From positions 256,001-320,000 of the forward strand of contig CBDDDG010000021.1 of NCBI GenBank assembly GCA_965226555.1: a stretch of DNA of 64,000 nucleotides. Direction: 5' to 3'. Below are positions 12,001-27,000 of the stretch, in pieces. The DNA is from Salinispira sp. (GTDB lineage Bacteria > Spirochaetota > Spirochaetia > DSM-27196 > Salinispiraceae). Each line of letters starts with the position of its first letter. The stretch's first letter is position 1. Position numbers: made by a program.

Positions 12001-15000
12001 TTCGCAATGTGCGCATTTCCTCATCGCTCAGCCCGGTAATTCTCTGAACAGCCTCTGTCGACAAGCCTTCCAAAAACATACTGCGGGCCGTTTCTCGAAT
12101 GCCTTCTTCACGACCTGTTCGCAGTCCTGTCTGCAATCCTTCCTGCCGACCCATTTCCGCAATGCGCGCTCTGAATGTTTCCGCATTCATTCTGAACATT
12201 TTTGCTACCTCCTTACCTCTCGGTTCTTTTGTTCTTTCTGAAACTTTTGCATTGGAAAATTGTGCAAGCACAATTTTCCAGTAGCAAAAGTTTCAAATTT
12301 GGAATGCTTTCTTTGTGCTTGGCATTCTCCAATTTTATAGAAAGTTTTGCCTCTGGCAAAACTTTGCTTCTAACTGGTTCATTAACGTATCTAAATCTAT
12401 AACAATTCCGAACATCGAATCTACCACGCCGATAAATTCCTTTATCAGCTCCAGCGATTCCTCATTCAGCATTTCTGCTATCGCGTTCTCCACCTTCCGA
12501 ATGTCCCAATCCGTATTCAGCAGATTTTTCGAGTATAGATCAAGGTACATAACAGCCGCAAACATTCTTCCCCGCTGCTGCAACTGCTCCGCAGAATAAT
12601 CGTTCTCACTTATCAGATCGTAGGGAAAGGGGGCAAGATACTGCGGGAATTCCCGCGTGTTCCGCTCTCTGACGTTCCCGGGCACCTTCCATTTTCTCGT
12701 GCCATTATAGAACACAATGGGCAGAAATATCAATTCGCAGTCATCGGGAATTGCTCTGGAGCGATGAATGTTCCGATAGAGCAGGTTTGTGTACTCCGAC
12801 ATGCGGAGGGGCATGTCTTTGTCCATGCGCCTCCGACAAAGCGTTGCAGAAATTGGAGCATTATTGCGGGTTGGAACAGCAGGGAGCGGTAGCCTTGGTC
12901 ATAGGGAACGGGGGCGGGTTTTTCTATGAATTAAAATGTCTGCGGTTCAAAGTCTTCGGCGTTGATAATGGAGGCGCTGGAACCCGTGGCTTTAATGGCA
13001 AAGAGCTTCTTTTTTTGAGCGTATTTATCGGCCGATCCAACAACATTTATGTAGGCAACACCCCCGTAAATAATATCGTTTTGAAAGCGGGGCATGGCTG
13101 TTCGAAATAGTTTCATGCTCTTGAGAAAATGATCCACATCTTCTACCCTGAGAGTGGTTTTGACTTCAATTACCACCGTTTCATTGCCGTTGCAGGCAAT
13201 AAGATCAAACTCGGCAAGCGGTTTTCCCGGAACTTCTATATATTCTCTTCTAACCAAAGTTTTGTCTACGGTAATTCCTCTCCTCTTGAGCAACCTTACC
13301 AAGTCGCCCTCCACGAGGCTCTCTATGAGCTTGCCCCACTGGGAGGTAAAGAGTTCATCGAGCTTTTTTAGCCTGCGGTCGGTTTCCTTCTCTCGACGCC
13401 GAGACTCCAGTCGGGACTCTTCCATTCGGCGGTCGGTTTCCTTCATTCGACGGTCGGTTTCCTTCATTTGGCGGTCGGTTTCCTTCATTTGGCGGTCGGT
13501 TTCCTTCATTTGGCGGTCGGTTTCCTTCATTTGGAGGTCAATTTCCTTCCCTCGACGCTCAGCCTCCTTCTCTCGACGCTGAGACTCCAGTCGGGACTCT
13601 TCCATTCGACGGTCAATTTCCTTCCCTCGACGCTCAGCCTCAATTCGAGACTCCTTTTGGGACTTTGCCGTTTCTGCCATCATGTCTTTAATTTCTTGTA
13701 CGGTTAGTTCTGCCATTGTCTGTCTCCTCTCATGTATAATAGCCTTTTCCGGTACTGAAATCAACTGGCAGACATTCTGCCGAAAACCCTGCCAAAGCCT
13801 CCGACCAGCCCCCGTCTCAGCAACAGACGCATGGCGAGCCGGATGCCCGGGCGAGCAGCGCAGTAGCCAAAGCCGCCGACCAGCCGGCGCGCTCACTCAT
13901 GTACCGCGCCGGCATCTACAGCATGCAGTTATGGAATAGTAATCGTATTAGACGATTCCGACCACTCACTATTACCCGCCGCGTTAATAGCGCGTATACC
14001 TATTTTGTATGTGTCGCCTGAGGTATTACCGGGTTGATATGCGCTAAAGGACTGACTGGGGAGGGGATAACTAGATACTATCCAGTCTCCATCATTTATG
14101 CTATATCGCAGTTGATACGCGGTAATGGCACTGCCTCCGTTGTCGGTCGGCAGTGTCCATGTAATATCAAATGCTCCTTGAATACCCGCAGTTAATGTAA
14201 GTATTGGAGGGTCGGGTTTGTTGGGAACAAGGTCAGCAGGAGTTACCGAGGCAGCAGGAGTCGACTTCAGCCACGCGCCATCGCCCGCAGTGTTCTGTGC
14301 GCGAACCCATACTTCCACATTATACGCGGTGCCGTTTGCCAGCGCGGTACTGTCTTTCAATGCCGTAATGCGGTAGCTTGTATTACTTGTATCAGTAGTG
14401 GTTTCGGTCTGCCAGTCGCCCTCTACCAGAGCTGCTGCGGATACGCGATATTGCAGGTCATACCCGGTAATGGCGCTGCCGCCGTTGTTAGTCGGCGCTG
14501 TCCATGCGGCTGTAATAGATTGGTGCACTGGTACGAGCGTCAGGCCGGTTGGAACGGCAGGAGGCCCAATAGGGGTTGCGGTGCCAGTCGCTGGGTTACC
14601 ATTGCCCTGACCATTGACAGCGTAGACCCGCACCTCGTACGCGGTGCCGTTTGTCAGGCCCGTGATGGTATGGCTGGTGTTTGTGTCAGGGGAAATCGGC
14701 ATTGTCCATGTTCCGCCGACTTCGCGATGGTGTAGTTTATACCCCGTGATATCAGGATAGTCTCCCGCCTCAGGCGCAGCCCATGTTGCGGTAATTTGCA
14801 TATTTCCCGCTGTGAGCGTAAACGCAGTCGGTTCCGTGGGAACGCCGCCAATAGGTATTGCTTCCATGCTCGATTCCGACCATTCGCCTGCGCCCGCGCT
14901 GTTCCGTGCGCGCACCTGCGCGACGTAGGGGGTGCCGTTTGTCAGCCCCCCAATGGCGGCGCTTACGGCTGGCGCGTCGGCTGTAGTAATATCCTCCGAC

Positions 15001-24000: not shown

Positions 24001-27000
24001 GCGCCAGCCCTTGCTGCGGGAGACAGACAGCTCACTGCATCGTGGGCTGAGCTCGCCGCTATATGGAATGAGGTAAACAAAAAGGATGGCAAAAACACCA
24101 TTACCTCGTACAAATTACGCTATGGTGAATTTGGCAGTGGAATCTGGACGGAGATTAACACCGGTATTACCACAAGCCATACCATTACCGGGCTGACAAA
24201 CGGCGTCAATTATGCCGTTCAGGTACGTGCCGTCAACGCGGGGGGTGGGGGTGCGTGGTCAGCATCATCCACGGCAACACCTATTGCGCCGCCAACTGCG
24301 CCCCCTACCCCGCCGGGTACAATGGCTGCTCCAACCTTTGAAGTGGGGAATGGGTTGCTCATTGCCACATGGACTGCGCCAACCGATAACGGCGGCAGCC
24401 CCATTACCGGGTATGAGCTGCAATATCGCGCAGATGACATGGAGCCATGGATGTTCACGAGCTCCGGCATTACCTGCGCACGTAGCGAGGGGCAGGCAGA
24501 AGTCTGTCAATTTTCCTTCTCATTTTACCCTCCGTATATAGGCCACACCATTACGACAGACGGCGCCAGCTACCAACTGCGGGTACGCGCCGTCAACGCG
24601 CAGGGCAATGGCGAATGGTCTGCAACAGCAACAACAACGCTCCCTATTGTTACGGCAAAGCTTCCCGAGGGGATGGCAGCGGTCGCAATTCTTTCGGCTG
24701 AGGTTAGTACCATTATTGCCACCAATGATCTCAGCGTTTCTTTGACCACGGTAGAGTCTGGCACGTACGCGGTCGATGAATCGGGAGACATTACGATAAC
24801 CCCCGCAACTGCGCCCAATGGGGTCAACCCGCCGATTGTCGATTCGAGTACCGGACTTATTACGGTTGCCGCAGATACAACAGCAGGAACATATCTGGTA
24901 TACGGCAGTGACACCGGAAGCACAGACATATTGTTTGCTGAGTATTTTTACGTTACCGTGAGTCCTCAAGATAGTGATGCTAATAATGATGGCGGTAATG
25001 GTGAACTGAAAATGGCGGTAACTGAGGGAATATCAACCTATGGCAATACTGGCAATTTCAACTACATTATTACCACCGCAGTAAGGGATATGTCCTCTGT
25101 CTTCGCTAACAACACCGCATTCAATGGCGATGTCTCCGGCTGGGATGTCAGCACGGTAACGACTATGTACAAAATGTTCGAGGGAGCAAGCGTATTCAAT
25201 GGCGATGTCTCCGGCTGGGATGTCAGCTCGGTAACGACTATGTACAAAATGTTCCATAGCGCGGTAGTATTCAATCGCGATATTTCCGGCTGGGATGTCA
25301 GCACGGTAATGAATACAGTCATTATGTTTGGTAATGCAACCGCATTCGTTCAAGATCTTGAGGAGTGGGGGGAGCATCTTACGCTTGATGGCAGTGGCAA
25401 ATATACCGGAGCTAAAAGCACTATGTTTGGTAATTCCGGCGTAACAGGTAGTCTGGTGCCGTCATGGTTTTAGTTTCATAGCCCATAACCCGCAGCGGTT
25501 AATGAAATGTTGCAATTCAACTCAGGCAGACGCGGGGCTGGTCGCGCCTGCTCGTCCAAGCGCATCCGGCTTGCATGCGTCCGGGATGTGGTGCACTTAT
25601 GGTTGCACGGTTGCACGGTTGCTCGCTCTTGCCCGTCCGGCGCCGGTCGCATAGTAAAATCCCATCCGAAAAAATCGAAAATTCTGCAAAATTTTCTTAT
25701 TACATCATCCACTATGCCCGCATATCCCGTCTATATGGTATGAGCGAAAAATATATCGGAATGGTACCACTCTGACCCACGAGCGCTCAATTTTCGGGCT
25801 ATCTTATGAAGTCAGTCGGATATCGCCATAGACGCGCTATCCCGCGCTCCCTGAGCGCGCCCGCCGCCGGAAACTGCTGCTCCTGCCTTAATGCCCGAAA
25901 CACCGAATACTCTCTTACCGGGCAATTCATATCAATCCACCTTTGAAAAACACAACATTCTTTCAAATTCTCTCAAAAAACACAGTCAAAAATGACATTT
26001 TACCCGTTATAGATGTAAGAGGAATATTTATGAAAAAATCATCCCACAGCACAGGACACATCCACGACATAGCCTTCAAGATCGCCTACTACAGAACCCC
26101 CCGTATGATTCCCGACCTGCTGCGGCTGTTCTGTGAGGATACAACGCTTGCCAAGCTGGACATGGACAAAATCCGCATTGAAAACCCCAGTTACATTGCA
26201 GGAAAAAAGAACCTTCACTGCGATCTCGTTGTCAGCGCCCCCTTCCTGTCAGACCCCGACCGAAAAGCTCTATTCATTACTGAAAATTTTGCTCCGCAAA
26301 ATTTTCAAATGAGGATTCTCTCATCTATACTCTTGATTCTCTCACGGTATAGAAAGTTTTGCCTTGGAAAATTGTGCAAGCACAATTTCCAGTAGCAAAA
26401 CTTTTGTATTGAGCATAAAAGCTACCAGCATAAACATGCTCTCACACAGATTGATGACTATCAATATGCCCTCAGAAACAGCAATGTGTACAATGAAAAT
26501 GATGCTATCTATATACTTCTGTTCTACCATGGAAAAAAGGAATGGAACCTCCCACTCACATTTTACAGTTCACATGGAAATGCTGCTTCCGAATCCATGA
26601 CTGAAGGCACAGTGGATGTCAGGGTGAAAGTGTCGTACATTGTGCGCGATCTGAGGAGAATGACAAAGAAGCAGTTGGCATTGCGCTCCGATGAAAAACG
26701 ATATACATCGACTGCATTGTGGTATATAATGCGAGACAATGAGATGGACGCTGAGGGGCTGAAAGAAATTGCGCAGCTCCTGAACGGTCTGTCATCACAA
26801 GACTTTGCTGATCTGGCAGAGAGTGTGCTAGGCTATCTGAAAGATTTGGGACTGTATGAGCAGTTTGAGAAAATTGACAGGAAACTATATCCTGAAGGAG
26901 AAAACAGTATGCGGACATATAACATAACCAACGCCTTCGTCAGAGAAGGCATTGCGAAGGGCCGGATTGAGGGTCTTGAGCAGGGAATGGAGAGAGGTAT

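What a model noticed while it worked through the whole genome (the two positions that open the first line are those of the whole stretch)
13929..25473. Poly-G phase variation across a 130-member surface lipoprotein family
Two expanded surface lipoprotein families carry slippage-prone repeats at the start of the reading frame. 37 fn3/PARCEL lipoprotein genes have G7-G21 tracts in or just after the signal peptide, 26 of them out of frame, and six propeller-family genes plus one fn3 gene have 5- to 13-bp-unit repeats right after the start codon. This is a genome-wide set of on/off contingency loci in a non-pathogen spirochete.
Evidence so far: 107 of 134 fn3/PARCEL genes had a traceable lipobox; 26 of 37 with a tract are out of frame against 8 of 70 without; the same leader occurs with G7, 8, 9, 10 and 19. 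Of 10 perfect non-triplet repeats of >=20 bp and >=4 units, 7 lie at 5' ends of these lipoprotein genes (units of 5, 7, 8, 13 bp; in frame at 6, 9, 12, 30 units, broken at 4 and 7; for example C10:346959, C25:26914, C25:33796), the other 3 on a foreign-looking contig end. Controls: 22 G/C runs of >=8 inside ordinary genes keep their frame; short-read contigs of two runs match a G10 tract at C18:93040 without gaps. G10 tracts also sit in two promoter regions (C14:59000, C18:93040). Searches: calls 46, 47.
(Added by a program. Inside this text positions count along the whole contig: contig position 256,001 is position 1 of the stretch shown here. "Call 12" and the like, gene names such as g00115 and contig names such as C1 are that model's own, and its searches are not shown. 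The text may have been shortened before it was handed on; [...] marks where a part breaks off. The agent that wrote the report below was given it as the finding of a first reader that could run no searches.)

Follow-up and report, generated by a model that had tools for sequence, protein, structure and literature searches.

The report
Slippage switches on spirochete surface lipoproteins
In an uncultured spirochete, about fifty genes of two large lipoprotein families carry slippery DNA repeats near their start, most of them out of frame while the rest of the gene is intact, so they are likely random on/off switches of a well-known kind, used at unusual scale and also found in distant spirochete lineages.

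Summary
Confirmed. In the window, G19 (15282-15300) and G8 (23913-23920) sit between the ribosome-site ATG and the lipobox; both genes stop early. Genome-wide, 28 of 40 tract-bearing fn3/PARCEL genes are out of frame, against 4 of 74 without a tract. 27 of the 28 have an unbroken body. All 31 G/C runs of 10 or more lie in or beside lipoprotein genes (about 2 expected). A second (propeller) family uses 5-13-bp units and poly-C at the same position. Two distant spirochete genomes show the same layout, with G11-18 and with (TA)10-14, which argues against an assembly artefact or simple decay. Best reading (0.8): slipped-strand translational phase variation. Switching itself is not shown: only contigs were available, and neither window tract was resolved. 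The mechanism is classical, and poly-G in PARCEL lipoprotein N-termini is in print for Mycoplasma agalactiae. This scan has noted similar switches in other spirochete genomes. What is new is the scale, the mix of repeat types and the convergence.

The parts
13929..15337 (-). fn3 x4 lipoprotein gene, OFF state; true start ATG 15337 after AAGGAG (15345-15350); lipobox Cys codon at 15227
15282..15300 (-). G19 tract in the signal-peptide coding region; frame from the RBS-ATG stops at codon 24; an ATG overlapping the first G is in frame with the body but has no ribosome site
15526..17427 (-). fn3-mid-PARCEL (DUF285) lipoprotein gene without tract, in frame (internal control)
21494..21501 (+). G8 inside an alanine-racemase-like gene (label recalled), frame kept; matched without gaps by contigs of runs X1 and X2 (control)
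   Evidence: (records 8, 15)
23891..25473 (+). fn3 x2-mid-PARCEL lipoprotein gene, OFF state; start ATG 23891 after AAGGAGG (23877-23883); lipobox Cys codon at 23968
23913..23920 (+). G8 tract in the signal-peptide coding region, followed in frame by TAA (23921-23923)
2427..4313 (-). further family member (fn3 x3-mid-PARCEL), no tract, in frame; outside the given coordinates
35775..37529 (+). further fn3-bearing lipoprotein gene, no tract, in frame; outside the given coordinates
62653..62663 (+). C11 tract just after the lipobox Cys of an unrelated collagen-like lipoprotein, in frame; candidate additional switch

Best explanation
About fifty lipoprotein genes carry a repeat tract between or just behind the start codon and the lipobox, and these tracts likely work as slipped-strand on/off switches. 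Shown: tract length sets whether the ribosome-site ATG is in frame with the export signal and the body; about 70% are out of frame; the bodies are intact; near-identical leaders differ in tract length. Inferred: replication slippage changes the length often and reversibly, so each cell would export a different subset of roughly 150 predicted surface lipoproteins. Also inferred: the benefit is evasion of host recognition or phage, or changing adhesion. The tracts appear to have arisen several times (poly-G from Gly codons, poly-C from Pro codons, 5-, 7-, 8- and 13-bp units) and to spread with leader cassettes during family expansion.
For: 28/40 vs 4/74 out of frame (Fisher 3e-13, but paralogues are not independent); the OFF share fits a free 2/3 (p 0.74). 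Bodies broken: 1/28 OFF, 1/12 ON, 8/74 tract-less; median dN/dS to nearest paralogue 0.68/0.54/0.64. 31 G/C runs >=10 vs about 2 extrapolated; 23 at fn3/PARCEL 5' ends and the other 8 in or beside lipoprotein genes. Leader tree needs at least 3 gains/losses (8 on the best tree); leaders within about 0.05 changes per site carry G7-G19. Non-homopolymer repeats at the same place: 7 perfect arrays plus a 2-unit OFF copy and a C12 OFF copy. Length-matched control: 8/11 OFF at G8-9 in family 5' ends vs 1 broken among 28 non-family runs >=8 in ORFs. Three internal G10 are identical and in frame. Contigs of runs X1/X2 show a G10 length in 4 contigs laid on one leader and 1 contig on the other, which matches the out-of-frame G10 paralogues of the assembly. 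Proteins of another Salinispira sp. assembly carry translations of the same 7- and 13-bp repeats. Distant genomes: G043 has 34 of 43 G>=9 runs in lipoprotein leaders (27 OFF); G041 has 46 of 75 TA arrays examined in leaders (40 OFF); RecA 61-68% identical to G000, separate clade.
Against: No within-population length variation was seen; the runs are held as contigs and neither window tract was resolved. X1/X2 may be the source sample, so they are not independent. A 2/3 OFF share is also what random length errors would give, and two ordinary genes are broken at G7/G8. Some OFF alleles have an in-frame ATG or TTG at the tract edge, so leaky expression is possible. MutS and MutL frames are open, which should lower slippage rates at short tracts. 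dN/dS was a rough count on mosaic paralogues. Surface exposure is predicted from a lipobox pattern only. G042 has a large DUF285 expansion but neither tract type.
Confidence: 0.8

Rival explanations
1. Neutral decay: G-rich leader codons expanded by drift in a redundant gene family, and frameshifts are the first step to pseudogenes.
For: The family turns over fast: best matches of another assembly's proteins are mostly 49-87% identical. 8 of 74 tract-less genes are broken in the body. One remnant carries a C21 run.
Against: 27 of 28 OFF genes have unbroken bodies although they are 49-95% identical to their nearest paralogue. Several repeat chemistries occupy the same position. The same layout recurs in G041 and G043.
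Confidence: 0.1
2. Assembly artefact: tracts exist but the true lengths are in frame; homopolymer errors in repeated leaders created the frameshifts.
For: Two ordinary genes are broken at G7/G8. The window tracts are unresolved in contigs. The OFF share equals the random expectation.
Against: Run contigs reproduce out-of-frame G10 and match 2837 and 3145 unique bases with no difference. Internal G10 x3 are in frame. 8- and 13-bp unit changes are not homopolymer errors. An error would not explain why long runs are confined to lipoprotein 5' ends.
Confidence: 0.05
3. The tracts act as expression rheostats or recombination sites rather than genetic switches: transcriptional or ribosomal slippage gives low-level product, or G-rich runs promote exchange of leaders and bodies between paralogues.
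For: Different n-regions join similar h-regions at the tract (by eye). Two genes with 95% identical bodies have different leaders. PMC2824730 (passages) raises ribosomal shifting for a Mycoplasma poly-G leader.
Against: It does not account for 5-13-bp or TA repeats at the same position, nor for the wide spread of lengths across all three frames (14/10/8).
Confidence: 0.05

Closest known systems
Mycoplasma agalactiae PARCEL/DUF285 lipoproteins MAG1330 and MAG3260 (PMC2996958, passages seen)
   Same: [quoted passage not shown]
   Different: Two genes in a mollicute, against 40 fn3/PARCEL genes plus a second family in a spirochete; added fn3 and an unnamed middle domain; several repeat types
M. 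agalactiae P48-like MAGa1620 / M. bovis P68 poly-G leader switch (PMC2824730, passages seen)
   Same: G8-10 separates the start from an in-frame signal peptide and lipobox; length differs between strains
   Different: Single-copy genes with strain and proteomic data; none available here
Neisseria opa family (11 phase-variable genes per PMC11868660 passages; pentamer repeat in the leader is recalled)
   Same: Multi-copy surface family, each copy switched independently by a leader repeat
   Different: Outer-membrane barrel proteins, one repeat type, human pathogen; no homology tested
Treponema pallidum poly-G loci tprE/G/J/L and tp0126 (PMC7864442, passages seen)
   Same: Spirochete, poly-G, surface proteins, length varies in vivo
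   Different: Promoter tracts acting on transcription; here mainly coding-frame tracts in lipoproteins, with only a few upstream tracts

Membership tests
SSR-mediated translational phase variation | Simple repeat in the 5' coding region whose length sets the reading frame | tested here: met
SSR-mediated translational phase variation | Gene otherwise intact, so that the switch can be reversed | tested here: met
   27 of 28 OFF bodies unbroken
SSR-mediated translational phase variation | Repeat length varies at one locus between cells or strains | tested here: inconclusive
   varies among paralogues; contigs did not resolve the window loci; other strains seen as proteins only; no duplicate haplotype with a tract
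SSR-mediated translational phase variation | Reversible switching at a high rate (definition in PMC11868660, passage seen) | not testable with these tools
   needs raw reads over time, or culture
SSR-mediated translational phase variation | Product present or absent according to tract length | not testable with these tools
   needs proteomics or a reporter
PARCEL/DUF285 surface lipoproteins | DUF285 repeats above the Pfam cut-off | tested here: met
   336.8 and 111.5 bits for two window proteins; 131 matches in the genome
PARCEL/DUF285 surface lipoproteins | Lipoprotein signal with lipobox Cys | tested here: met
   pattern match in 118 genes; pattern is my own, no signal-peptide predictor was run
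PARCEL/DUF285 surface lipoproteins | Surface exposure | not testable with these tools
   inferred from spirochete lipoprotein biology (own knowledge)
T. pallidum-type promoter poly-G switch | Tract within the promoter changes transcription | not tested
   two upstream G10 and a C6/C8 spacer tract were seen; start sites unknown

The most novel reading that the evidence does not exclude
Several unrelated, probably invertebrate-associated spirochete lineages independently built a genome-scale surface switchboard: an expanded PARCEL or fn3-like lipoprotein family with a slippage switch in each leader (poly-G here and in G043, TA in G041, promoter poly-C and a heptamer in Ca. Haliotispira prima). 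Most copies are held OFF (40 of 46 in G041, more than the 2/3 expected). This would be pathogen-style antigenic variation driven by innate host recognition or by phage rather than by antibodies.
Probability: 0.35. Interest if true: 0.75.

Novelty: new member of a known kind. Interest (0 to 1): 0.55.

Why it matters
Repeat-driven phase variation is known mostly from pathogens of vertebrates. About fifty candidate switches on two surface families in one uncultured spirochete, and the same design with other repeats in distant spirochetes, would show that large switchable repertoires evolve repeatedly outside that setting. It gives a concrete set of loci for asking what selects for surface variation without antibodies. 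In practice, gene callers miss the signal peptides of the OFF copies and annotate them as truncated or hypothetical proteins.

Tried and rejected
Sequencing runs: no RNA holder listed. Runs X4/X5 (labelled cave metagenome, shares 0.20/0.15) hold 250-600-base pieces with few differences, but show no cover at either tract, so no strain comparison was possible and I draw no habitat from them. The G10 contig laid on the G19 tract is best read as collapsed paralogues, not as an allele of this locus. One search showed only 12 of 66 indel rows and 32 of 4089 pieces. JGI metagenome scan: 7 loci, all distant DUF285 matches. Viral contigs: no match to a leader pattern. Self-comparison gave 7 duplications >=2 kb; by coordinates none holds a tract listed. 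A third apparent frame shift in the control (C2:15932) is a gene boundary and was rejected. Mismatch-repair loss was rejected as the cause: MutS and MutL are present here, and MutS in G041-G044. hisG and trpA are present, so they give no sign of an auxotrophic lifestyle. A structure job on alignment A1 never finished. Literature searches (listings only) found no report of this system; PMC12478362 (term search) has 0 hits for fibronectin, lipoprotein or phase variation in its main text, and its supplements were not seen.
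Full report
Setting. The window is G000:C21:256001-320000, in a 2.98-Mb, 26-contig genome (93.5% complete, 6.7% contamination) with no other member of its genus among the 40 relatives searched. Three FlaA genes mark it as a spirochete. Its closest homologues outside the genome are named Salinispira sp. by their source. DUF285 gives 131 matches here against 0-14 in the 40 relatives; fn3 gives 383 first-look candidates against at most 25. 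The expansion is therefore lineage-specific among those searched.

The window. Three family genes lie in the given range. The gene at 13929-15337 (-) has four fn3 domains. Its ATG follows AAGGAG, then comes G19 (15282-15300), and the frame stops at codon 24. The gene at 23891-25473 (+) has fn3 and DUF285 domains; G8 (23913-23920) is followed at once by TAA. In both, the hydrophobic signal, lipobox and whole body are open in another frame. The middle gene (15526-17427) has no tract and is in frame.

Genome-wide count. Profiles seeded from the window proteins hit 142 ORF pieces; 124 had a lipobox upstream, 118 distinct, and 18 had none. I dropped 4 without a callable start and corrected 5 start calls by eye. 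A G or C run of 7 or more lies in the leader (32 genes) or within 120 bases after the Cys (8 genes). 28 of these 40 are out of frame, against 4 of 74 without a tract (Fisher 3e-13; paralogues are not independent). By length: 3/6 at 7, 8/11 at 8-9, 17/23 at 10 or more. The OFF share fits 2/3 (p 0.74). Leader frames split 14/10/8. The genome has 31 G/C runs of 10 or more, about 2 expected from the decay at 6-7, and no A/T run of 10 or more. 23 sit at fn3/PARCEL 5' ends. The other 8 are three internal G10 in fn3 domains, two G10 upstream of lipoprotein genes, a C12 in a propeller-family leader, a C11 in a collagen-like lipoprotein and a C21 in a family remnant.

Second family. Of 25 perfect tandem repeats (>=20 bp, >=4 units), 10 are non-triplet; 7 lie right after start codons of lipoprotein genes and 3 on contig C23. 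Five are in frame and two out. Among 48 ORF pieces of that family, related leaders also occur with about one unit (in frame), two units (out) and a C12 run (out), and the 13-bp units differ in sequence between copies. Different repeats have therefore arisen at the same position.

Switch or decay. Bodies are broken in 1 of 28 OFF, 1 of 12 ON and 8 of 74 tract-less genes (one of the 8 is a doubtful call caused by a neighbouring fragment). Median dN/dS to the nearest paralogue is 0.68, 0.54 and 0.64 (rough Nei-Gojobori count on mosaic genes). OFF genes are 49-95% identical to their nearest paralogue, so long-standing inactivation should have left other lesions (inference). On a tree of 118 leaders with G runs shortened, tract presence needs at least 3 changes (8 on the best tree), and leaders within about 0.05 changes per site carry G7, 8, 9, 10, 10, 10 and 19. 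Length thus changes faster than point substitution.

Switch or artefact. So 1 of 28 non-family runs >=8 in ORFs and 1 of 67 scorable 7-base runs are broken. That is far below 8/11 at family 5' ends. Three internal G10 in paralogous fn3 domains are identical and in frame. Only contigs were available. Those of X1 and X2, one sample and possibly the source, match 2837 and 3145 unique bases without a difference, including the G8 at 21494. On the G8 leader 4 contigs show G10, and on the G19 leader one shows G10. The assembly has exactly four and three such G10 paralogues, all out of frame, so out-of-frame lengths exist in the reads. The window's own two tracts were not resolved.

Other genomes. Proteins of another Salinispira sp. 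assembly belong to both families; two are partial and begin inside the 7-bp or 13-bp repeat translation, and one carries the 13-bp repeat with fewer units. The 7-bp junction there reads differently from G000, so the in-frame call at 30 units is not secure. A scan of genome contigs with a family alignment led to four other spirochete chromosomes with 171-245 DUF285 matches each. In G043 (OZ244590.1), of 43 G runs >=9, 34 lie in lipoprotein leaders (27 OFF, 7 ON), 5 upstream of lipoprotein genes and 4 were unassigned. In G041 (OZ245332.1), of 75 TA arrays examined, 46 lie in leaders (40 OFF, 6 ON; p 0.003 against 2/3), 2 upstream, and 27 were unassigned by my pattern, many of them visibly the same leaders. 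In G044 (Ca. Haliotispira prima), 6 of 9 runs viewed, out of 34, lie upstream of lipoprotein-like frames (by eye). G042 has neither tract type. RecA of G000 is 61% and 68% identical to G041 and G043, which form a separate clade (100/99), and the four G043 tract-lipoprotein frames tested have no blastp hit in G000. Close relatives of G000 lack the expansions. Independent origin is the simplest reading (inference from one marker gene).

Mechanism. Shown: geometry, frames, intact bodies, length spread. Inferred: slippage during replication flips each gene between an exported lipoprotein and a short peptide, giving each cell its own subset. MutS and MutL are present, so long tracts and multi-base units would carry most of the switching. 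What the variation is for is not shown. The host is unknown; homologues of the propeller domain include proteins from a named sponge-symbiont genus (Ca. Poriferisodalis; lifestyle recalled), and Salinispira-classified spirochetes are reported as sponge symbionts (PMC12478362, passages). That suggests, but does not show, an animal association.

Comparison with what is known. PMC2996958 (passages) proposes frameshift phase variation for two M. agalactiae PARCEL lipoproteins with N-terminal poly-G. PMC2824730 (passages) describes the P48-like/P68 poly-G leader. PMC7864442 (passages) shows promoter poly-G variation in T. pallidum. PMC3315296 (passages) treats N-terminal repeat enrichment as a phase-variation signature, mostly in pathogens. 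PMC11868660 (passages) requires reversibility and a switching rate, which I could not test. Searches found no paper on this system; subscription journals are not covered. The scan's own notes record similar switches in other spirochete genomes; these are unchecked AI notes and not support.

Verdict. A real and large set of candidate contingency loci of a classical kind: new member of a known kind, interest 0.55. Its most interesting aspect is the repeated evolution of the same design with different repeats across spirochete lineages.

Noticed in passing
G041 loci L131-L160, L195-L210 (OZ245332.1): At least 75 (TA)10-14 arrays, most in signal-peptide regions of PARCEL-type lipoproteins; 40 of 46 assigned are out of frame, more than 2/3.
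   Followed up: partly
G043 loci L103-L129, L161-L194 (OZ244590.1): 43 G runs of 11-41; 34 in leaders of a lipoprotein family unrelated by blastp to G000, 5 upstream of other lipoprotein genes.
   Followed up: partly
G044 loci L110, L116, L119, L122, L125, L128, L052 (Ca. Haliotispira prima): C/G 9-10 runs upstream of lipoprotein genes and a 7-bp repeat in leaders (reads NIQYPIS); 225 DUF285 matches.
   Followed up: partly
window 62653-62663: C11 directly after the lipobox Cys of a collagen-like lipoprotein, in frame; likely another switch.
   Followed up: partly
L019:1566-1573 (G000 C22:160265) and L020 (C22:258106): A GH43-like gene and a livM-like gene are frameshifted at G8 and G7: assembly errors, pseudogenes or extra switches.
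   Followed up: partly
G000 C1:165119, C21:232098, C2:64012: C8 versus C6 run in the spacer after a TTGACA hexamer upstream of one leader class; possible promoter-spacing switch.
   Followed up: no
window 12335-13896, 25943-27220; about 30 copies genome-wide: Multi-copy genes resembling Rpn/PD-(D/E)XK proteins (label recalled), often beside the lipoprotein genes; their conserved upstream element has a G4-G8 run.
   Followed up: no
G000 contig C23:65-2104: Three CA/ACAT/TGTA microsatellites at a contig end that look foreign to the genome.
   Followed up: no
P0098-P0104 (ENA): 740-880-aa fn3-rich proteins with a different, non-lipoprotein N-terminus, about 50% identical to the fn3 arrays here, on contigs of mostly 46-48 kb; possibly phage-borne relatives.
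   Followed up: no
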